64,000 bases of DNA, from NCBI GenBank assembly GCA_000002445.1, contig CH464491.1:1216001-1280000 (forward strand), read 5' to 3'. Origin of the DNA: Trypanosoma brucei (taxonomy: Eukaryota). The notes below the pieces were generated by a model. It was not told where the DNA came from, ran no database searches, and was given only the letters and a program-made list of their open reading frames with translations. Below are positions 23,509 to 53,390 of this stretch, one piece after another (the first letter of the stretch is position 1; each line of letters starts with the position of its first letter). Made by a program: the position numbers and the translations under genes.

Positions 23509-24664
23509 TGTCTTGTTAACAGAATTCACAAGCTTTCTACCACTCCTATTTCCTTCTTAACCCGTGAAGCTCCCCTGCTATTGTTCTGCTTTCGCTTTTG
23601 CGTGACTCAAATACGTGTTTTCTCCCCTTTGAAGCACCGCTTCCGCGCCCTCCTTTACAGATCCAAAAGGGAGAGACCTAACTGAAAAAAGGTAGAATCT
23701 TTCTCGCACCAACACAATGGGTGCAACCACCACAAACTGCTTTTGTAGAATTCCTACGCACACTACCACACACCTCGTAATTCAGGCGCAAATAATAAAG
23801 AATTGACGCGCGAAGGCGTGGCACCATCAAGCAAAAGGAGAAGTCGGGAAAATGGACGCAAGAGGAAGAAAGGGTGGGAAAACAAAGCAAGACAACGGAT
23901 GCAGGGAACCACTAGGGAACACATGCAAAGGGGAAGGGAAAAAGGAGAAGTGGTCATGCTCCTTTTTCAAGTATTCTTTTGCGGCAGTAAAATAAGTGAA
24001 CTGATCCATATTCCCAAAAGTGGATGTAAAAAAAAAAAAACGTAGTCGTATCGAGGGAAGAGCTCCCCTAGGACATGAGAACAACAATTAAAAGAACGAG
24101 AAGGCTAAAGTTGATTTTTAAAAAAAGTATGTAACACTTGTTACCCCCTCTTTTCAGCTGCTCGCACTCACGCCACACCCGCCTTATACATTTCTTCTTC
24201 CCCGCCTCCCCCTCCACGGTTTTTTCCTTAAATGCCGCTGCCCCACTTCCAGTGTGGAGGCCGTCACCTTCTGCCATGAACGGGATCTGCACCGGTGGCT
24301 GTGTTACTACCTAATTCGTTTTCCGTAATTCTTACGATGAAGGTATGGAAACAATAAGCGCCTTTCGTCGGAGCCTGTGCCAGTGGGTTCCAAGGCTGTC
24401 AGAGAACCTTATTTACCATAGGAGGTATCGCAATGCGTTAATCTTTTAACCATGTTGCCCTGGGACCATTGCAAACACCATTTCAGTATCCCGACGGGGG
24501 TGGTGACACCTACCCTTCTTCCTCGTGAGCACATTACGGAACCCTATGGCACTACAATGATGTGTCACGGGTCGTCAGGATCCCACTACATTACACTAAT
24601 GGATATCAACCCCCCCCCCAAAAAAAAGGAGCAACCAGCTCGGTTTACCTTAACAGTGTCGCGT

Positions 24665-26790: not shown

Positions 26791-26815
26791 CCCCCCCCCC
26801 CCCACACACACACAC
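26791..26815. repeat. C13 homopolymer followed by (AC)6, about 25-50 nt 3' of the ASCC3-like stop codon (G13(GT)6 in the minus-strand transcript)
   Basis: cccccccccccccacacacacacac read directly. Lies just downstream of the minus-strand stop at 26841. Confidence 0.85.
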
Positions 26816-26840
26816 GACCACCTTAACAGCGCACGCTGAC

Positions 26841-43652: not shown

Positions 43653-45992
43653 TTATAATAAAAATGTTTCCTGGTGAAAGTCAACCCCAAGGGAATGGGC
43701 AACACTTCTTGCCAACTCCACGAGGACGGGGGAACCGCAGGCAAATAAGAGCACGGTTCTGGGATCTTTGCCGGCAATTACCTGCGGTATCCTGTCAAAA
43801 ATATCCATCCGTTCATTCACCACACATGTATATTCTCCATCTTCCACATTACAACCGCCGGTGAAAAACACCTGAATTCGGTCACTGGGAGCCTCCTCGA
43901 TTGTAGACGAGGTCGAAACAGCGGACAAGTCGCCTCCCTGCCAAAGCTGCGACATTAACAACAAAAGTTCCCTGTCACGCACGCTCCACAGAAGCATGGG
44001 AGTCGGACTCCTCAACCCCAGAGCCATGCGATCGCAGATATGACTATATACGGACGCGCATGGAGTTATACCGATGCCTCCTGCGACAAACAAAATGTTT
44101 TGATGTTCGTTGATATCTAGTGCACGGCCACATGGGCCTTCAACATACAGTTTAAACTTCAATCCGCGTCTACACACCAACTTACCCAGCTTTTCTGTCC
44201 ACGTGCCCTCACCCATTGATTTGATATAGAGTAAATAATAGCCTTCGTGTTCACACATTATACTGAAGGGATGCCACTGTAGCAGCGATATGTCGGGAAC
44301 GTTTACAAACACAAACTGCCCAGGTAATGCCCCCAGCGACCCATGTCGGAAACGAATCTCCACAAAGGAGCCGGACGCAGTAGCCGACACGAGGTCCACT
44401 GTCGATCCACGGCGATATATCCTCAGAAGCCAGTCTAGGAACCAAATAGTCAACCCGGGGAGGAAGTATTCCCATGCTGAGGCCGCATGCCACAACACAA
44501 CCGGTACCAACATGTAGAACGTGACGATGTGTGCGTAGTAGAAGAGCTCGTAGAAGCGGCGACGAAGGGGCTCCAATGCAAAAATGATTGTCGAAACAAG
44601 GGAAAAAAGTGTCGTAAGGGTGATAAGTGGAATTGTGTAGTCATCTCTGTTACCGGGAGGATCAACTGCTGGAATGGAAAAAATCCCTTGTGGAAAGACA
44701 CCCAGTTCAAAGCAGCGCACGTACCAACCTATCGCGTGACCAACGATACCAAGCAACGCTCCGTATCCAAGGAGCCTATGAACCCAAATGGACGACTCCC
44801 ATGAGGTCCCCAAAATTGAGTGAAGCACAGAATAACGACTCACGGGAAATATGGAAAGCGAGAGAAAAGCTACGGCCAACTGACCCATTGAACGATACCA
44901 TCGCTCGGATGATACCGTGTCATTAGAGATGTCAGTGTACCTCTGCTTAAAGTTATGACCCTGGATCCAGTACAAAAAAAATAGCACAATCATTGAAAAA
45001 GTGAGAAAAAGAAAACCCACCTCGCCGTACGTGTAATCACGCAACACTGGGCATCTCCGCTTGAGAAACCTCCGCCCGTAGCGGAAAGAACGAATCAACG
45101 CAGTGGTAAGTAGTATAACGAACAAGTAACCGTAGAATATCAGATTACTTGGGTACGCCTTCAGCACTACCTCGTCATTTATTACCAAATTTCTCGTGCG
45201 TATCCACGACCACGGCAGATCCGGGCAAGTGTATGTATGAGGCTCAGTTCGGCACAGGGTGTAGTTGTGCGAGCTGAGCATCCTGGCATTTCTTGCTATG
45301 CGCACAGGCAAAAACGATTCTAAGGAGTTCGGCATATAAAGTGATACAACGGCCCAAAACGAGACGAACGCGACGGCGAACAGGAACCTCAAAAGTGGTG
45401 CGAATCGATCTGAGACAAATCGACGGCCTTTGTGGCCTGTCCAAAAAGGGTCAACGCCGAATACACGGCGTGCGGCTTGAAAGAGGATTACAACTCCGAT
45501 CGGAACGAAGGACAAGAACGCTGCCAAACCAAGACCCGAACGGAATGCAACGCCGGCTTCTGGACGGCCACCTCGGTTCGTCGAGGCAGTGCTCCCGGTG
45601 CAAAAAACGGCAAGGCACTGCATGGTCTCGCTTCCCCACACAGCTCCTAGACCCCCTAACACGACAAACACCAAACCTAGCATCCCCATTAAAATAAGAC
45701 CCAAAATGCCACCATGTATGCAAGCGAGAGTGCTTGTCCCGACGTACAGTAGAGAAACTCCCAGTGTAGAAAACACGCCGAAGGAAAAGAGACCAATAAA
45801 GTTCAGTGCATCGTAACCCGCCCAATTACTTGGATGCGGGCCCACGTTGTTGAACATTTCAGCCTTAAACCATAACAGAAGGCCTAGCACCGCTATGCAC
45901 ACACTGATAGCACCCACAAAAAGGAGTTTTCGCGCAGCAACAAGAGTACTGACATCATACCCCGTTCTCGTTATGTGTGGGATTAAATCCAT
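43653..45992 (-). CDS. ferric reductase / NADPH-oxidase-like transmembrane oxidoreductase
   Basis: 779 aa with a real ATG (cat 45990-45992). Multiple TM helices carry conserved His residues. FAD-binding HPF[ST] motif (LLQWHPFSIMCEHEGYYLLYIKS). NAD(P)H-binding GGIGITP. C-terminal CGSPVL (NOX 'CGP'-type). Confidence 0.75.
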   Translation of the reverse strand: MDLIPHITRTGYDVSTLVAARKLLFVGAISVCIAVLGLLLWFKAEMFNNVGPHPSNWAGYDALNFIGLFSFGVFSTLGVSLLYVGTSTLACIHGGILGLILMGMLGLVFVVLGGLGAVWGSETMQCLAVFCTGSTASTNRGGRPEAGVAFRSGLGLAAFLSFVPIGVVILFQAARRVFGVDPFWTGHKGRRFVSDRFAPLLRFLFAVAFVSFWAVVSLYMPNSLESFLPVRIARNARMLSSHNYTLCRTEPHTYTCPDLPWSWIRTRNLVINDEVVLKAYPSNLIFYGYLFVILLTTALIRSFRYGRRFLKRRCPVLRDYTYGEVGFLFLTFSMIVLFFLYWIQGHNFKQRYTDISNDTVSSERWYRSMGQLAVAFLSLSIFPVSRYSVLHSILGTSWESSIWVHRLLGYGALLGIVGHAIGWYVRCFELGVFPQGIFSIPAVDPPGNRDDYTIPLITLTTLFSLVSTIIFALEPLRRRFYELFYYAHIVTFYMLVPVVLWHAASAWEYFLPGLTIWFLDWLLRIYRRGSTVDLVSATASGSFVEIRFRHGSLGALPGQFVFVNVPDISLLQWHPFSIMCEHEGYYLLYIKSMGEGTWTEKLGKLVCRRGLKFKLYVEGPCGRALDINEHQNILFVAGGIGITPCASVYSHICDRMALGLRSPTPMLLWSVRDRELLLLMSQLWQGGDLSAVSTSSTIEEAPSDRIQVFFTGGCNVEDGEYTCVVNERMDIFDRIPQVIAGKDPRTVLLFACGSPVLVELARSVAHSLGVDFHQETFLL

Positions 45993-48900
45993 AGAACAGG
46001 AATTACTCTCAACGGTTTTGTTTCTCTATATCACTGCGTTGCAGAATATGGGGAAGTAAATGGTAGCCCTCGGGGAAGGTGAATGGCAAAAGTGGTGTCA
46101 GTACAGCAGGGGGGAAGTTCAGCTTAATCTTTTTAAAAGGTAGTAATAAGAAACCACAGACCCACAAACTGGACGCTCAACCGCGTTTAAAGTTACCGTT
46201 TAAGACGCGCAAATAAAAGTTGTCTCTCCGTTATGAGAATACTTCACTCCTATTACCCACTTTCGACGCTTTTCTCACTCCGATACTTCGAAACAGACCC
46301 TACTAATGGTCTCGTCCCAGCTGAAACATAATATCTCCATCTGCACCCAATGCCCAGTCCATTGAAAACCAGCTCAGAAATTGTCACTTCTGGCTCCCTA
46401 ATCTTTAACACAACTTGCTTAGCGGCGGATGTCATGACCCTATGTGTAAAGGAGATATCGTCTCCTACATGAATCAGTGCATTTTGCTCAACGTAAACAC
46501 ACCCTGCGTTTGACCGAGTTGAAACCGGTAGCTGATTCCCCACAAACAACTGAACCTTGCAAGTCCAACTCCCTTCCTTTCAGTACCTTCATGCCCCTTG
46601 AGAGACCTTCTACGTTTCAGTGATTCATGACCGGTGTTGTGTTTCTGCTTCTCGTCAAAACTGTAATATGGAAGGAGGTTTCCGAGCTAATGTCGGTCAA
46701 ACGCTCGAAGGCAGTTTATCACATTACGAAAGTACTGCTATAACACAGCTATACAACAAGGGAAAGTTTTTAAAAAATAAATACACCGTTAAAGCGCAGT
46801 TACCCTTTTTCCATCCCCCTAACAACTCTACAGGTAAGAAAAAAATGTGCTGCGTCGTAATGGACCCCAACATCTGGCAGTTATATGGCGTTTCCACTCT
46901 CCTCCGAAATTACAAATTGGCTGACGTTTCCATGCGTGTAACGATCATACTGCGAACAAAGCAAAGAGACCAGGTAATTTTGCGAAGCACTCCTTAAATA
47001 TACCAAAATATCCGTCAAAATGCTGACCACCTTGATAGAAAGCCTTTTTCCGCAAGAAGATAGAAATACCTCCGAAAAAATCCGGTTAAAACATAAAGCG
47101 GTAAAGGTTACGACATCGTAAAACAGATCACAAACATGCATATATAAAGTTGAAAATACAGTACATGCACGGTCTTTCAATCAAAAATTTAAAAATAAAA
47201 GCAACCAAAGTAAAGGCATTTTAAAAAAATAAAAAGAAGAAAAAGCGGCAACCAAAAAAAAATAAAATTAAGGGGTTGCACGATTTCCAACACATATACC
47301 GGCGAATGACAGACAGTGCTAACTCTTTATTCCTCTTGGCACTGCGAAGAGACAAAAAACTGTGGAAATACAACTTCCTCTTCCCAAAATGAATAATTGC
47401 CCACAACATCTTCGCTTCACGATTGTGGTTTATCACTGAACCCGTATGGCTCCCATGTTCCTCCTCTTCACCTTCCTGACTTCCACAGCTTCCCTCACAA
47501 TTATTTAATATTGTGAACACAAAACACACGTAAGTCAAAACGGTCAAATACAGACAAGTTACGGGGAAGACGGGACCACCAATCCTTCAAATATGAGACA
47601 AAACCTCTACAGCTCACTGTTCAGCATGCTGCGTAGACAGCTGAGACCACATTAGCGACAAAAGGTCAAAAAATGCACAAAGTCCCCGCCCCAATTATGG
47701 TAATCCCCTCTACAAAGATCATCTTGTACAACTGGTGTACAACACACCTCCGATGGAGTTAGATCTACTATACCACACAATCATAAAGATGGAAGACGGA
47801 CATCAAGAGAGGCACCGTTGCTCTGCCATCACAGAGCACGAGCAGCAGAAAGCAGGGCCGATGCGTAACCCCCTTGATCGCACCTGCGCAGGTGAATCGA
47901 TCGATTTAGTGAAAAAACAGTCTTTAAAAAAATATCATACACCTCATATTACCGTGTAAATTCCATTGCAACAAAGCAAAAACTTAGTAATAACGGGAAG
48001 TTGACGTTACGATCAACTGTGCCGACGGCCGTGCCACAAACAAATACCAGAAAGATATAACCATTAACGCGCCAGAAACCGCAGCCCACTGTGATCACCA
48101 AGTCAGCAACTGGCCAAAAAGACAATATTAGTTTTTGAAGAGCTAGTAAAGACATCACACGTATAACGTCAACGGCACAAAGTGGTTGTACTCCACGCAT
48201 CGGGGAATTCAAAAGAAGGTAAATTAAGTTCCCTTCATACAGAGGTAGTTTCTCCTCCATTGGCACCACCTGAGACTGACCTAGGAAACAGGGATGCCTC
48301 AAAGCCTGTTTGGTCACTCCTTATTTGTACTGTTAACCCCCCGAAGTGCCACAAAGAAACGACAGCAGAGGAAACAGATCCTGTGCGCATCACAGCCCCG
48401 TTACAGGGATGTGTCATTCAGAACGCATGCACATACACGGAGGTGTGACCGCACCGCTCACGTCCAGTTCCCCCTCGTGCCACCACCGCCACGTCCTGCA
48501 CGAGTAATGAATTCGCTAGAACACATTCCCGCACCAAGAGAACCGAACGGCAAAAACAAAGAATTGAAAAGAAACGGACCCACGCGCACTGTCGGATACT
48601 TAGATCCAATAAAAGTGATCACTGCACCTGCCTCGCCGCCGGGCGATCACGCCCTCCTTTCCCCTCGGTCGGGCGGCTCCGAGTACGCACCAAACACATT
48701 CACGGGTGTCTGGGACACCACACCCTTCACCACTGCCACCAAGCACTCACATACCGAACACCGTTGCGATCTACGGTATCCCTCTTGCTCTCCTTCGCGA
48801 AAGATGCCACACGCGACAGCGACCACAACAAACGGATCAGAGAGGCAAGACGGGGGCGACGCGAAAGCAAGGAGGCAGGAACCCACCCACTGGACGCCGG

Positions 48901-51721
48901 CGGCAAGGCCTGCAAGGCACGTGAGCCCTTCACGAACCATTTCCACCGCCCCCTGTGAAGGCCCCAGCCGCCCGACAAAGTCGCACTGCCCTTGCGGCCT
49001 GCATCGCCGGGGGAAATAGGAGAGCCGATAATACCTCTAGTGGAGGGAAGTTTTGATGACGCTGAGCACCTCCAACTTTCAACTACAAATAGGTTCCGGA
49101 GTCCCTGCGCACCGCAGACCGCAACGACAGAATACCTCAGAAAGGAACACTGTCAGCCACTTGGATAAAAGCAACACCGCCTCTTCCAATAGATGAATAT
49201 CAACCCACAAGACAGCGTGATTTCCAGATACGCCGGTCACCCCACCGCGGTGCCAACGGAAAATACTTCACAGATAAGGGAAGCCAACATCTAGCACACC
49301 ACTCGAGTCATCAACTTGGGGCTCGCACTTACGACACATCGACCAGAGCACACGCGCACAGCACTAACAGAGAATTTCGGGTAACGTATAGCCTCTAAGT
49401 ACGCACTATTCCCGACGCAATCGCGTTATCACATACCCGCGTTAATGGAATCGTCCTGTTCCTGAACACGGACGTCGAAAAGAACCAAGTTCTTATTTTC
49501 TGTGGAACAAATTAGGACGTGAGAGGACTCCTAGACGAGAAAGGTCGACCTTTACTGATGTGCCTCGCAAAAAGGTGTCTTCCTCCAGCCAACACCCGAT
49601 GCGATCCCAGCATCCCGACGGAAGTGGGGACGCTTAGTTTTTCTTGAGGGTGGGCGCTTTTCCATGACGCCACGGTGTACCGTCGGCCGTTGATGCGGTG
49701 GCGCGCTAGTTTTGTGGGTCATGGCTGCCGAGCGTCGTTATTCACCAACACGACATTCGAAGTGGTAAAACCCCTCAGCCTTTCCGTCCCGCCTTTTGCA
49801 ACAGAGTACCGGTTTTCTGAGGTTCCTCCCCAGCGCGCGTTGATCGTCAAAGTCGACGAGGGTTTCGGGGGGAGAGCGTGCGACTAGAAATTTAAAATGA
49901 TGAGTGGGCGGCCTAGCCGGACCGCGCTGGAATAAGGTGGCAACCATTCTGCGGGTGTGAACCCTTGGAGCTGCGCGTTCGCTGTCGCGGCCTGCCGGTG
50001 AGCCGGGCTGCCCGGTATACTATCGAGGGAGTAGGTACTTTTATGCCGTGCTCGTTAGGTGTTTCTGTCCGCGTTTCCTCCTTGACCGTAAGGCTCTCAC
50101 GTTCCGGCTTGGCGAGGTACCGTGTTCGTGGGAACGTGAGACTTTGGATTCCCGGTTTTGCAGCTTGGTGGTGAAGCGGGCCTTCTGTCCTTGACGGTGC
50201 CGTCTGCCGCCTGTGACAGAAGCGAGTTCCGTCGCGTCAGTGGTCCCAATCTAGAAGGGTCCAGGCAACCCCACTCTCCCTGTGCCTACCGTATCAGTGA
50301 CAGATTTGTGGGAGGGGGGGGGGGTCTCTTTCACGCGTTGCTGGACTTGCGCAAAGGACTTTTGCCAACGCTGCACACATTTCCTCTTTTACCTTTTGTT
50401 TTCCCAGCTCATCAAACTGAGTGCGTTCATGTGCGTTGTGGGTGTGACCGTTGTAGTCGAACGTTTCTGATGTAACCCAGGAAATACGTTAGACGACAGA
50501 GCTCACCAGACCGCGTCAGCGCTCCTCCGCGCTTTGGTGACAACGTGAATGTAGGGGCGGTGCTGATATTTGGTCGCCCGTGTATAGCAACGTTTTCTTA
50601 CCAAATGCATAATCGGTCAAAAAGTATGGAAGCGGAACTAGGGTGTCAAGAACATGTGCAATGTGGCAATCGGACTTTGTGGCTTGGCTTAGTTGCTATG
50701 AAATAATTAGCACTAAAATCTTTCCGTGGTTACGACGAATCTTTTCTTGATTGTGGTGTGTTTGATTGCAAACACGGAGGTGCAGACGTTCAAGCACCCA
50801 GTTGTTTGGCTATATTAAATAGGTTTGGCGGGCAGTTCGTCTGTCTCCACCCATGCTCACACCTGGTCATTAAGAAAGGAAGCTGCTTTTTCTAGGGGAA
50901 ACATGGACAGAGCTACCGATAAAGCTAACTGAGTCAACTTTTGCTTTTTCTTTTTTGAGAAAAAGTCACAGGGATCCCTAACCATATCTTTACTAGCATG
51001 AAATTTATGGAAGCCTTTCGTTGTGGTATGATTTACCGTAACCGCCAGGGGTGAAAACCGGTTAGTGGGTAAAGTGATTACCGTCTATATCACCAAAAGT
51101 GTCTATTGCCCGTAGTATGTTGATACTATAGGTAAATTTCTGTTGTTCGTTTCTTGGGCGTATTTACGAGGTGTGGTGGTTAAGTTGAAGTTTTTTTTTA
51201 ATTTCGAGAGTCCTTTTTTTTAAAAAAAAGGAGGCTCTCTCAGATGAGAAGGGAAGAATTGGTAATGACATTAGGTATGTGCGAAGCAGAATGTAACGGT
51301 GTCATTGCCTTCGTCATTGTTGCACACTCGATCAATTTAATTTAAAGACGTAGGTACCACAAGTCCTAATCAGAGGTGTGTGGTAAGGGAAAAAGCAACA
51401 ACATGTTAACCATTGAAGAGACTAAGAAATTCGGTCCTTTTTTTGTTATGTCTTGCGGGGTTTCCGTGAACCTTATCATCGGAGGTATCTCTAGTACCAA
51501 CTGTTTGTCTTGCTTGATGAGCTAATTATTTTTTAAAATGAAATGATGAACCTTTTCTTGATTGCGGTTATTGATTGGTCGCTAAGTGCTTCCTTCTATT
51601 TAGAGAATTTTGCAACATAACCCTAACCTATTTTCGCCACTGTCTACTTTACTAAGGTTTGTTAATTCTTAAGTATTTCGCACGGTATAATCACCGAAAA
51701 AAATTTATACCACGACCAAAG
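45993..51721. promoter_or_regulatory. divergent strand-switch region between the two polycistronic units; putative bidirectional RNA Pol II transcription start region
   Basis: No long ORF with coding character over 5.7 kb. Minus-strand genes end (5' ends) at 45992 and plus-strand genes begin at 51722. The + strand is C/A-rich over 48300-49300 (GT-rich on the minus strand) and G/T-rich over 49950-50480, including G11 at 50314-50324. AT-rich, polypyrimidine-containing sequence lies at 50500-51700 before the first + gene. Confidence 0.6.
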
Positions 51722-52075
51722 ATGTCAGAAAAAGGTGGTGACGACAGTCGCTCTTCTCAGGTTCGTGTTAGTGTTAAGCGCCGTAATTTCTCCTACGTGG
51801 ATTCCATTAAGGTCCGTCTCAGCGGAGGAAAACCGGAAGTTACCATATCTGCATTGGGTAAAGCCATATCAGATGCAGTTGCTGTCGCCGAAATACTAAA
51901 AAACCAAGGGCTTATCGATGTTAAAAAAATCACAACCTCTCGGGGCGCCGCTGAATCTGATGGCGACGCGGTGAACGACAAGATCGAAATACTGATTACA
52001 AAGTCTAAGGACTTTGACACAATATATGCCGAACAACAGAAAAGGAAGTTGGAAAACGCTGATAAAAAGGAGTAG
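51722..52075 (+). CDS. ALBA: ALBA-domain RNA/DNA-binding protein (paralogue 1 of tandem pair)
   Basis: 117 aa from ATG 51722 (MSEKGGDD…). The track ORF starts 21 codons earlier. VRVSVKRRNFSYVDSIKVRLSGGKPEVTISALGKAISDAVAVAEILKNQGLIDVKKITTSR…DKIEILITKSKDFDTIYAEQQKRK is an Alba-fold layout. Clearly paralogous to the next gene (shared VKKITTSR, DKIEI, YEEQQK). Confidence 0.65.
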   Translation: MSEKGGDDSRSSQVRVSVKRRNFSYVDSIKVRLSGGKPEVTISALGKAISDAVAVAEILKNQGLIDVKKITTSRGAAESDGDAVNDKIEILITKSKDFDTIYAEQQKRKLENADKKE

Positions 52076-52638
52076 CGGTGATTTAACAAAAAGAGAGAAT
52101 GAACGGTAAATCCGAACTTACGTGTGCTTAGGGGGGGAGAAATAGGCTGCTGAAGGGCATGTGTGGTATACATATACATCATATGTCCCGGTGTAAAGGG
52201 GAGATAACTGGTGAAACGGAGGGTTAAGAAACAGTTCGAGAATCACACTCAGCTATGTTTTTTTTTTTAAAGGTGGGATCTCTCTTTTTCGTCTTCGATA
52301 CAATTATTGATATCGCCGTGTTTTACGGTAGCATCCAGGAAAAGAAAAGTAGAATAGGCCAGTTTATTTTTGACATCGCCTGATTTTTGAAATATTGAAA
52401 GGAAACATTCACTGCTGTATCTATTTGTTTCCTTTTTACCATTTGTATTTACCCTTCACTTCTTTTCATAATTGGTAACATAACGATCAAAATTAAAAAA
52501 TATATTGGGATAAGAACAGCGAAAATACCACACAAACACCAAACACACATACAAAAGTATATCTGCTACTTTAAAAAAAAAAAAACTTCGAAAGAACTTT
52601 GGAACAACTCAAGAAGACAAACGAGGAACTCGCTGCAT

Positions 52639-53016
52639 ATGACGACAGGAAAGAGCGACCGCCCCAGGAACTCCGTCCGGGTTGGCTATCGCGGTACTAA
52701 ATTTCTATTTGTTGATATAACCAAGCACCTTTTGCACGATGGCGAGAAGGAAGTATATGTTTCTGCTCTCGGTGGCGCCATCAACGAAGCTGTGTCCGTT
52801 GTGGAGATGCTGAAGGATCAGCAAATGGTGGTTGTAAAAAAAATCACCACCTCGCGACAGGTCAGTGAGGAACCAGACGACGGCCCTGTCGACAAAATCG
52901 AAATCGTTGTTACGAAAGCAGATGGTTTCGACGCGAAATATGAAGAGCAACAAAAGGCTCGCGAAGCTAAGAGGCTCGAAAAGGAGAAAAATGAGAAGGA
53001 GAAGGCTACAGCGTAA
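52639..53016 (+). CDS. ALBA: ALBA-domain RNA/DNA-binding protein (paralogue 2 of tandem pair)
   Basis: 125 aa with a real ATG 52639. VRVGYRGTKFLFVDITKHLLHDGEKEVYVSALGGAINEAVSVVEMLKDQQMVVVKKITTSRQV…DKIEIVVTKADGFDAKYEEQQKAREAKRLEKEK. Lys/Glu-rich tail. Confidence 0.65.
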   Translation: MTTGKSDRPRNSVRVGYRGTKFLFVDITKHLLHDGEKEVYVSALGGAINEAVSVVEMLKDQQMVVVKKITTSRQVSEEPDDGPVDKIEIVVTKADGFDAKYEEQQKAREAKRLEKEKNEKEKATA

Positions 53017-53040
53017 TGAAGAGCGAAACCGAAATGAAGA

Positions 53041-53067
53041 GAGGGAGAGAGAGAGAGAGAGAGAGAA
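53041..53067. repeat. (GA)n microsatellite (about 12 units) in the ALBA2 3' flank
   Basis: gagggagagagagagagagagagagaa read directly. Confidence 0.9.
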
Positions 53068-53390
53068 CGGAAAAAATGAAAATACACGAGGTACACGGGG
53101 AAATATGTTTTTCATTTGGGCCGGCTTTGATAACCCATATCTTTGGAGAAGATGGAAAGAGAAAGTAAAAGGATAGTGGCTCTGGGACAAGAAAAGGAAG
53201 AAATATACTAGGTATTGAGAAGTCATCCAAGGTCCGTGTTTAAACTTGATCAGTTTCACGAGTGTTAACATCTTTTCGCAAAGGAGGGAAAATATTACCT
53301 TTTCGCCTACTTTTTTCTATGCCATCTAATTCTGTTGTAGGTCACCTTTCTTTGTGGTTGTGTAGGTGCTGCTTTCCGAAAATTCGGAAT

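What the first reader, a model, noticed from the sequence alone, without database searches (positions are those of the whole stretch)
45993..51721. Divergent strand-switch region with mirrored GT-skew and a G11 tract: a sequence-visible bidirectional Pol II start region
The two gene arrays diverge here, so this is a candidate transcription start region for both. The composition is strand-asymmetric and flips in the middle. From about 48300 to 49300 the + strand is C/A-rich (runs of cacc/ccac, few T), which makes the minus strand G/T-rich. From about 49950 to 50480 the + strand is G/T-rich (ggtgtttctgtccgcgtttcc…, gtgggagggggggggggtctc, with G11 at 50314-50324). Each unit therefore has a GT-rich stretch on its own coding strand a few kb upstream of its first gene. 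This is the arrangement reported for GT-rich Pol II promoters and H2A.Z deposition in African trypanosomes. The core (about 49400-50500) is also noticeably more GC-rich than flanking intergenic DNA.
Basis: partly seen in the sequence, partly recalled or inferred. Interest (0 to 1): 0.55.

Follow-up and report, generated by a model that had tools for sequence, protein, structure and literature searches.

The report
Known trypanosome bidirectional transcription start region
This is the gap between two back-to-back gene arrays on chromosome 11 of Trypanosoma brucei, already published as a start region for RNA polymerase II in both directions, and its G/T-rich, G-tract and GC-rich features match what is already described for such regions.

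Summary
The window is T. brucei TREU927 chromosome 11 (Tb927_11_01_v4:1,216,001-1,280,000). The finding covers the divergent strand-switch region between the ferric reductase gene (Tb11.02.1990, minus strand) and ALBA2 (Tb11.02.2030, plus strand).

G+T content flips sharply at about 49,620 (support interval 49,488-49,637), which is also the cumulative-skew minimum of the whole 64 kb. G11 is at 50,314-50,324. The core is the most GC-rich DNA in the window.

Two caveats apply:
- The size of the sense-strand GT skew (+0.13 to +0.22) is the same as in ordinary intergenic DNA of the left unit.
- Two further G>=10 tracts lie inside that unit.

GT skew and G-tracts therefore mark transcription direction rather than this region in particular. 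The region-specific signal is a twin GC-rich block (48.3-49.3 kb and 49.6-50.5 kb) with G on each sense strand.

Kolev et al. 2010 list both units as 'Divergent' Pol II start units, and G10 is the top sense-strand 10-mer in Wedel et al. 2017. The annotated 241-aa ORF in the core is probably spurious. A published 934-nt transcript (Tb11.NT.55), not the ferric reductase mRNA, is the first processed RNA on the left.

Verdict: correct, but already known.

The parts
43653..45992 (-). Ferric reductase CDS (Tb11.02.1990, EAN79407), the first annotated ORF of the left-hand polycistronic unit
   Evidence: ORF. Exact match to the T. brucei TREU927 protein. Listed as first ORF of a 'Divergent' unit in Kolev Table S14.
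46135..47069 (-). Published novel transcript Tb11.NT.55 (934 nt, 0.73 RNA per cell). It is the first processed RNA of the left unit and lies inside the strand-switch region.
   Evidence: Kolev Table S7 gives coordinates 1,263,069->1,262,135 (-), converted with the verified offset. An AG acceptor lies directly upstream on the minus strand ('ct' at 47,070-47,071 on the plus strand). It is absent from the paper's lists of conserved, peptide-supported or non-coding novel RNAs.
47180..47272 (-). T-rich (pyrimidine-rich) tract on the minus strand, upstream of the Tb11.NT.55 splice acceptor. Probably the tract that directs the first trans-splicing event of the left unit.
   Evidence: Sequence. A9 at 47,254-47,262 on the plus strand. 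Most of the left arm's matches to the Wedel 10-mers fall here. The splicing role is inferred.
48250..49300 (-). Left GC-rich block, G/T-rich on the minus (sense) strand. Candidate initiation zone of the left unit.
   Evidence: GC 0.55-0.60, sense-strand GT skew +0.18 to +0.23, sense-strand G fraction at or above the 96th percentile of non-coding windows. The initiation role is inferred from the published general pattern.
48294..49019 (+). Annotated 241-aa hypothetical ORF (Tb11.02.2020), probably not a gene
   Evidence: Kolev Table S2 lists it as an annotated ORF without a detectable transcript. No Pfam family. No relative among 1.84 billion representative proteins except itself. Flat GC1/2/3 of 0.56/0.60/0.58 against a low GC2 in real genes of the window. 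It lies on the T-poor strand. The stop-free run is still longer than most shuffles (p = 0.0085).
49488..49637 (.). Change point of G+T content (maximum likelihood at 49,620), the boundary between the two oppositely oriented halves
49620..50500 (+). Right GC-rich block, G/T-rich on the plus (sense) strand. Candidate initiation zone of the right unit.
   Evidence: GC 0.55-0.59, GT skew +0.10 to +0.22. The role is inferred as for the left block.
50314..50324 (+). G11 tract on the sense strand of the right unit
   Evidence: It is G10 in T. equiperdum. G10 is the top sense-strand 10-mer at 5' ends of T. brucei start regions.
51191..51237 (+). T9 and T8 tracts and a T8A8 palindrome about 500 nt upstream of the ALBA2 start codon. 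Candidate pyrimidine tract for the first splice acceptor of the right unit.
   Evidence: and (inverted repeat I2). The role is inferred. The mapped acceptor site was not available in the stored supplement.
51722..52075 (+). ALBA-domain protein CDS (117 aa, Tb11.02.2030, EAN79409), the first ORF of the right-hand unit
   Evidence: Poly(A) site 1,268,365 with a 290-nt 3' UTR matches window position 52,365. Listed as first ORF of a 'Divergent' unit.

Best explanation
The region is a divergent RNA polymerase II transcription start region of Trypanosoma brucei chromosome 11.

Two dispersed, directional promoters lie back to back and meet at about 49,500-49,640. Leftward transcription starts in the GC-rich block at 48.3-49.3 kb, whose minus strand is G/T-rich. 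Rightward transcription starts in the GC-rich block at 49.6-50.5 kb, whose plus strand is G/T-rich and carries G11.

As described for such regions in general, sense-strand G/T-rich sequence favours initiation in that direction and deposition of H2A.Z/H2B.V nucleosomes. Each primary transcript is then cut at its first trans-splice acceptor. On the left this yields Tb11.NT.55, then the ferric reductase mRNA. On the right it yields ALBA2 and then ALBA1.

What is shown and what is inferred:
- Shown here: the organism and locus, the divergent arrangement, the sharp skew change, the twin GC-rich blocks and the G11.
- Shown by others for this locus: both units are listed as start units of the 'Divergent' type.
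- Inferred: that initiation sits in the two GC-rich blocks, and that the G/T-rich sequence and G11 cause it at this locus.
For: - Locus identity and coordinates.
- Kolev et al. 2010 Table S14 lists both units as 'Divergent'. The text says 5'-triphosphate ends are enriched at every divergent unit.
- Wedel et al. 2017 report RNA pol II and primary transcripts peaking at the 5' end of H2A.Z regions. They also report a 4:1 sense bias, promoter activity of GT-rich sequence that depends on orientation, and G10 as the top sense-strand 10-mer.
- In the window, the flip is at 49,620 with a narrow support interval. The eight most GC-rich windows form two blocks on either side of it, each with G on its own sense strand. 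G11 is on the sense strand.
- A spliced, polyadenylated minus-strand transcript starts at 47,069, so leftward transcription must begin to the right of that point.
- ALBA is the first gene of its unit in T. rangeli as well, with minus-strand genes called upstream of it. T. rangeli has a 600-bp island of 0.67-0.68 GC with the same mirrored C-rich/G-rich halves upstream of ALBA, without sequence similarity. In T. cruzi, T. melophagium and T. grayi the same gene order follows ALBA.
Against: - No read-level data for this locus could be examined. The positions of the start sites within the 5.7 kb are therefore inferred.
- GT skew is no stronger here than in ordinary intergenic DNA.
- The published GT-rich 10-mers are not enriched in this region. 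There are about 3.5 hits per kb, and matches on the sense strand are spread through the intergenic regions of the whole left unit.
- The best match to the published G-tract/(GT)n pattern lies inside the left unit at 26,791-26,816, where no start is listed.
- The left arm has no G-tract.
- The SPARC study found no shared motif under its promoter peaks.
Confidence: 0.9

Rival explanations
1. The mirrored skew is only the passive, transcription-linked strand asymmetry that every trypanosomatid gene array carries (G over C and T over A on the sense strand, plus pyrimidine tracts for splicing). It changes sign here because the direction of transcription changes. It is a consequence of transcription and not a promoter signal.
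For: - Sense-strand GT skew of the arms equals that of ordinary intergenic regions.
- Matches to the Wedel 10-mers follow the sense strand through the whole left unit.
- G>=10 tracts also occur inside the unit.
- Wedel et al. themselves link their 10-mers to the known G-to-C and T-to-A skew.
Against: - It does not explain the twin GC-rich blocks, which exceed all other DNA in the window, or their recurrence in T. rangeli.
- Synthetic GT-rich sequence drove orientation-dependent transcription and H2A.Z deposition in reporter assays.
- This rival concerns cause and effect only. It does not dispute that transcription starts here.
Confidence: 0.35
2. The GC-rich core holds a real protein-coding gene (Tb11.02.2020, 241 aa, plus strand). 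The plus-strand unit would then start to its left, near 48,200.
For: - The ORF is annotated in T. brucei and T. equiperdum.
- Its stop-free run is longer than 99% of dinucleotide shuffles of the local 1.5 kb.
- The hypothetical-protein gene Tb927.11.4440, which I take by gene numbering to be this ORF's current ID, appears in two published differential-expression gene tables.
Against: - No detectable transcript in Kolev Table S2, and Table S14 starts the plus unit at Tb11.02.2030.
- No Pfam family and no relative in 1.84 billion representatives.
- No codon-position periodicity.
- It lies left of the skew change point, on the antisense, T-poor strand, where stop codons are rare.
- One such ORF among thousands of intergenic regions is expected by chance at p of about 0.01.
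Confidence: 0.05
3. The compositional switch marks a DNA replication origin. Origin-recognition binding sites in T. brucei are reported from memory to cluster at unit boundaries. This need not exclude a promoter.
For: Only general knowledge recalled from memory (Tiengwe et al. 2012, not read here). A sharp skew change point would also fit an origin.
Against: - Nothing in the sequence tests this.
- The skew follows transcription direction across the whole window, including intergenic regions far from the switch. That fits a transcription-linked bias.
- By recollection, only a minority of strand-switch regions are active origins.
Confidence: 0.15

Closest known systems
Divergent RNA pol II transcription start regions of Trypanosoma brucei (Siegel et al. 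2009; Kolev et al. 2010; Wedel et al. 2017)
   Same: - It lies between two diverging polycistronic units.
- It is listed as such in Kolev Table S14.
- It has a sense-strand G/T excess on both sides.
- It has a G>=10 tract on the sense strand at the 5' end of one side.
- No tRNA or Rfam family lies in the gap.
   Different: Nothing that sets it apart. Only one of the two arms has a G-tract, and the published 10-mers are not enriched relative to other intergenic DNA of the window.
Synthetic GT-rich promoter elements of Wedel et al. 2017 (GT_210_nt, GT_416_nt)
   Same: G-run and G/T-rich sequence on the sense strand, with direction-specific placement.
   Different: The synthetic elements are concatenated homopolymeric G and T runs and (GT)n. 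The native arms here are only moderately skewed (57-60% G+T) and hold a single G11. A closer sequence match, (GT)6G13, lies inside the left unit at 26,791-26,816.
75-bp sequence-specific pol II promoters of Cordon-Obras et al. 2022
   Same: They are reported to drive orientation-dependent initiation at the heads of T. brucei units (as summarised).
   Different: The paper is not held in the library, so its motif could not be scanned for here.
CpG-island-type dispersed promoters of animals
   Same: - A broad GC-rich zone of about 2 kb without a focused motif.
- Divergent initiation.
- CpG observed/expected of 1.13-1.22 at the centre, against 0.90 (sd 0.13) in other non-coding DNA.
   Different: The two are not homologous. 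The CpG excess is modest. Trypanosome start regions were reported to lack the nucleosome-depleted region typical of such promoters.
The head of the orthologous ALBA unit in Trypanosoma rangeli (locus L006)
   Same: - The same first genes: ALBA, ALBA, kinase, radial-spoke protein.
- A divergent arrangement.
- A GC-rich island with a C-rich left part and a G/T-rich right part that includes GTGTGTGGGGGG, 0.8-1.4 kb upstream of ALBA.
   Different: - The island is shorter (600 bp) and richer in GC (0.68).
- There is no detectable sequence similarity.
- The left-hand neighbour genes are different.

Membership tests
T. brucei divergent pol II transcription start region | Lies between two polycistronic units transcribed away from each other | tested here: met
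   All long ORFs left of 45,992 are on the minus strand, and those right of 51,722 are on the plus strand. Proteins match T. brucei chromosome 11 genes exactly.
T. brucei divergent pol II transcription start region | Experimental evidence of initiation (5'-triphosphate RNA ends) in both directions | tested here: met
   Checked by look-up, not by re-analysis. Kolev Table S14 lists Tb11.02.1990->1600 (-) and Tb11.02.2030->2370 (+) as 'Divergent' units. The text states that enrichment was seen at every divergent unit. Read-level tracks for this locus were not available.
T. brucei divergent pol II transcription start region | Twin peaks of H2A.Z/H2B.V, H4K10ac and H3K4me3 | not testable with these tools
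   No ChIP-seq data can be read here. By recollection of Siegel et al. 2009 (not held), these marks are a general feature of such regions.
T. brucei divergent pol II transcription start region | Sense-strand G/T excess, strongest at the 5' end | tested here: met
   Sense-strand GT skew is +0.175 (left arm) and +0.127 (right arm), with a change point at 49,620. The size is not above that of other intergenic DNA.
GT-rich promoter element (Wedel et al. 2017) | Long G runs, T runs or (GT)n on the sense strand, with G10 as the top 10-mer | tested here: inconclusive
   The right arm has G11 and five other listed 10-mers. The left arm has 13 listed 10-mers, mostly in the T-rich tract at 47,191-47,262, and no G run. 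The density of about 3.5 per kb is not enriched, and matches on the sense strand are spread through the intergenic regions of the whole left unit.
GT-rich promoter element (Wedel et al. 2017) | Orientation-dependent promoter activity and H2A.Z deposition in a reporter assay | not testable with these tools
   This needs an experiment.
75-bp sequence-specific promoter (Cordon-Obras et al. 2022) | Presence of the published promoter motif | not tested
   The paper is not held, so the motif is unavailable.
Pol III or small-RNA gene cluster at a unit boundary | tRNA, snRNA or other known RNA gene in the gap | tested here: not met
   ARAGORN found 0 genes and Rfam gave 0 matches at gathering score in the whole window.

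The most novel reading that the evidence does not exclude
The real sequence mark of the core of a divergent start region may not be GT skew as such. It may be a pair of GC-rich blocks, each with G on its own sense strand, that abut at a sharp change point. This compositional layout would then be maintained by selection without sequence conservation. The case for this is that the head of the ALBA unit shows the same layout in T. brucei and T. rangeli, and partly in T. melophagium, although the DNA cannot be aligned and the left-hand neighbours differ. I did not find this layout described in the papers I read, but I examined only one locus family.
Probability: 0.3. Interest if true: 0.35.

Novelty: already known. 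Interest (0 to 1): 0.12.

Why it matters
It confirms that a reader working from raw sequence alone can place a trypanosome pol II start region correctly. It also shows which cues carry the information. The useful cues are the strand switch, the sharp sign change of G+T content and the twin GC-rich blocks. GT skew size and G-tracts are not specific, because both also occur inside units.

For the biology it adds nothing new. The locus is in published lists of start regions, and its features match published descriptions.

Two small annotation points follow. The 241-aa ORF Tb11.02.2020 is probably not a gene. The first processed RNA of the left unit is Tb11.NT.55 rather than the ferric reductase mRNA.

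Tried and rejected
- Known RNA genes in the gap: none.
- Repeats or inverted repeats organising the region: only short chance-level matches and one T8A8 palindrome.
- The core as a repeated or mobile element: it is single-copy in the window, and ORFs of the region have no Pfam family.
- Decayed copies of the genes that flank ALBA or the ferric reductase gene in T. rangeli, T. cruzi or T. melophagium: tblastn and tblastx found nothing credible in the gap.
- Sequence conservation of the gap outside Trypanozoon: none. It is 99.7% identical to T. equiperdum.
- Enrichment of the published GT-rich 10-mers in the gap: not found.
- CpG excess: modest, about 2 sd at the centre.
- Papers not held: Cordon-Obras 2022 and Siegel 2009.
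- Splice-acceptor coordinates for ALBA2 and the ferric reductase gene: the stored Kolev tables are cut, and Siegel 2010 has no stored supplements.
- The SPARC paper's supplements do not mention these genes. Wedel Dataset EV2 holds only sequencing metadata.
- The T. congolense ferric reductase has no contig on record.


Full report
**Where the window comes from**

Four proteins encoded around the finding are identical to proteins of Trypanosoma brucei brucei TREU927. They are a 779-aa ferric reductase, a 529-aa C2-domain protein and two ALBA-domain proteins of 117 and 125 aa.

Three coordinate matches to the supplementary tables of Kolev et al. 2010 (PMC2936537) fix the window at Tb927_11_01_v4:1,216,001-1,280,000:
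- ORF Tb11.02.2020 at 1,264,294-1,265,019 equals the window ORF at 48,294-49,019.
- The poly(A) site of Tb11.02.2030 at 1,268,365 (3' UTR 290 nt) equals 52,075 + 290.
- The poly(A) site of Tb11.02.1980 at 1,254,494 (3' UTR 1,856 nt) equals 40,350 - 1,856.

**The observation**

All long ORFs up to 45,992 are on the minus strand, and those from 51,722 on are on the plus strand. The interval 45,993-51,721 is therefore a divergent strand-switch region.

- GT skew is -0.223 on the plus strand for 48,300-49,300 and +0.186 for 49,950-50,480.
- G11 sits at 50,314-50,324.
- The cumulative G+T skew of the entire 64 kb reaches its global minimum at 49,619.
- A two-state change-point fit between 47,300 and 51,200 puts the switch at 49,620, with a support interval of 49,488-49,637. 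The log-likelihood ratio is 55.7, and none of 500 block shuffles reach it.
- The core is GC-rich. The eight most GC-rich 500-bp windows of the whole 64 kb, coding DNA included, all lie here. They form two blocks, 48,401-49,200 and 49,601-50,400, separated by a dip.

**How specific the signals are**

I measured skew on the sense strand of each unit. Ordinary intergenic regions of the left unit have GT skews of +0.09 to +0.245. On non-overlapping 500-bp windows the switch region does not differ from other non-coding DNA in GT skew (Mann-Whitney p = 0.31).

G10 is expected 0.06 times in the window but occurs at three places, all on the sense strand of their unit. Two of these are inside the left unit, directly after stop codons: (GT)6G13 at 26,791-26,816 and T8G10 at 24,610-24,627.

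I also scored the window with the 157 sense-strand 10-mers of Wedel et al. 2017 (Dataset EV1). Their matches follow the sense strand throughout the left unit. They are no denser in the switch region, at about 3.5 per kb.

What is specific to the region is the GC content. The core windows are at the 100th percentile of non-coding windows, and sense-strand G fraction is at about the 99th.

**What else is in the interval**

- No tRNA gene and no Rfam family is present.
- There are no meaningful repeats.
- The core is single-copy in the window.
- The annotated 241-aa ORF (48,294-49,019, plus strand) lies in the left GC-rich block, on the T-poor strand. It has no Pfam family and no relative other than itself among 1.84 billion representative proteins. 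It shows no codon-position periodicity. Kolev Table S2 lists it as an annotated ORF without a detectable transcript. Its stop-free run is longer than 99% of dinucleotide shuffles of the local sequence. That is weak evidence, given how many intergenic regions a genome offers. I regard it as spurious.
- Kolev Table S7 lists a novel transcript, Tb11.NT.55, at 1,263,069->1,262,135 on the minus strand. That is window 46,135-47,069. The sequence shows the expected AG directly upstream on the minus strand, and a T-rich tract further upstream at 47,180-47,272. This RNA, not the ferric reductase mRNA, is the first processed product of the left unit. Leftward transcription must therefore begin to the right of about 47,300.

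**Published evidence for the interpretation**

[quoted passage not shown] They state that enrichment was seen at every divergent transcription unit, and they summarise this in Table S14. That table lists Tb11.02.1990->Tb11.02.1600 (-) and Tb11.02.2030->Tb11.02.2370 (+) as 'Divergent' units, and gives no internal start in the left unit. These are the two arrays that diverge in the finding.

Wedel et al. 2017 (PMC5579346) report the following:
- RNA pol II and small primary transcripts peak at the 5' end of H2A.Z-enriched regions.
- Sense transcripts outnumber antisense ones 4:1.
- All fragments of two start regions had promoter activity.
- Synthetic G/T-rich sequences drove orientation-dependent transcription and some H2A.Z deposition.
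- GGGGGGGGGG is by far the most enriched sense-strand 10-mer in the first fifth of start regions (132 versus 17).

**Comparison with other trypanosomes**

The gene order ALBA, ALBA, protein kinase, radial-spoke protein, AMP-binding enzyme is kept in T. cruzi, T. rangeli, T. melophagium and T. grayi. In T. rangeli, ALBA clearly heads its unit, with minus-strand genes called upstream of it. In one T. cruzi assembly, two minus-strand ORFs without Pfam matches are called just upstream. In the other species the upstream region is uninformative, because few or no genes are called there or the contig ends.

The left-hand partner differs. In T. rangeli the ferric reductase gene is internal to a unit, and in T. 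cruzi it is a five-copy tandem array.

The gap cannot be aligned outside Trypanozoon. It is 99.7% identical to T. equiperdum, where the G-tract is G10.

T. rangeli nevertheless has a 600-bp island of 0.67-0.68 GC in an otherwise AT-rich gap. Its left part is C-rich. Its right part is G/T-rich and includes GTGTGTGGGGGG, 0.8-1.4 kb upstream of ALBA. T. melophagium has its skew change about 6.6 kb upstream, followed by a block with GC 0.57 and GT skew +0.3. T. cruzi is ambiguous.

The compositional layout therefore recurs without sequence conservation. This is suggestive, but it rests on one locus family.

**Mechanism**

The best-supported reading is two dispersed, directional promoters lying back to back and meeting at about 49,500-49,640. 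Initiation would occur in the two GC-rich blocks, whose sense strands are G/T-rich. Each primary transcript is cut at the first trans-splice acceptor on its side.

The start region itself rests on published experiments. The positions of the start sites inside the 5.7 kb, and a causal role for the G/T-rich sequence or the G11 at this locus, are inferences.

The main rival is about cause, not about place. The skew may simply be the passive, transcription-linked asymmetry that all units carry. The in-window statistics fit that view, although it does not account for the GC-rich blocks.

A real gene in the core is unlikely. A replication origin cannot be tested here and would not exclude a promoter.

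**Verdict**

The region is in published lists of pol II start regions, and its features match published descriptions. Interest is low.

The only point that might go beyond the papers I read is the twin GC-rich block as the region-specific sequence mark. That needs a genome-wide test.

Noticed in passing
window 26,791-26,816 (-) and 24,610-24,627 (-): Two G>=10 tracts lie inside the left unit, on its sense strand, directly after stop codons. They are (GT)6G13 after the 2196-aa gene and T8G10 after the 317-aa gene. The first is a closer match to the published GT-rich promoter 10-mers than anything in the strand-switch region. Kolev Table S14 lists no internal start in this unit.
   Followed up: partly
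window 48,294-49,019 (+): The annotated hypothetical ORF Tb11.02.2020 (241 aa) has no relatives, no transcript in Kolev Table S2 and no codon periodicity, so it is probably an annotation artefact on the T-poor strand. Its stop-free run is still unusual against shuffles (p = 0.0085).
   Followed up: yes
window 46,135-47,069 (-): The published novel transcript Tb11.NT.55 lies inside the strand-switch region, upstream of the ferric reductase gene. It holds only short ORFs (about 98 aa) without Pfam matches. Its function is unknown.
   Followed up: partly
L006 8,600-9,200 (T. rangeli): A 600-bp island of 0.67-0.68 GC lies in an AT-rich divergent gap upstream of the ALBA orthologue. Its left part is C-rich and its right part is G/T-rich. 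This is the same layout as in T. brucei, without sequence similarity.
   Followed up: partly
L002 (T. cruzi) and L003 (T. rangeli): The ferric reductase gene is a five-copy tandem array in T. cruzi. In T. rangeli it is internal to a unit, with same-strand genes upstream. The left half of the T. brucei strand-switch region therefore arose by rearrangement, while the ALBA head is retained.
   Followed up: partly
window 51,206-51,237: A palindrome, GAGAGTCCTTTTTTTTAAAAAAAAGGAGGCTCTC (T8A8 centre), lies about 500 nt upstream of the ALBA2 start codon.
   Followed up: no
window 50,314-50,324 versus L001 (T. equiperdum): The G-tract differs in length between close relatives: G11 in TREU927 and G10 in T. 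equiperdum.
   Followed up: no
window 52,705-53,271 (-): A 188-aa low-complexity ORF lies antisense to the second ALBA gene. It is almost certainly spurious.
   Followed up: no
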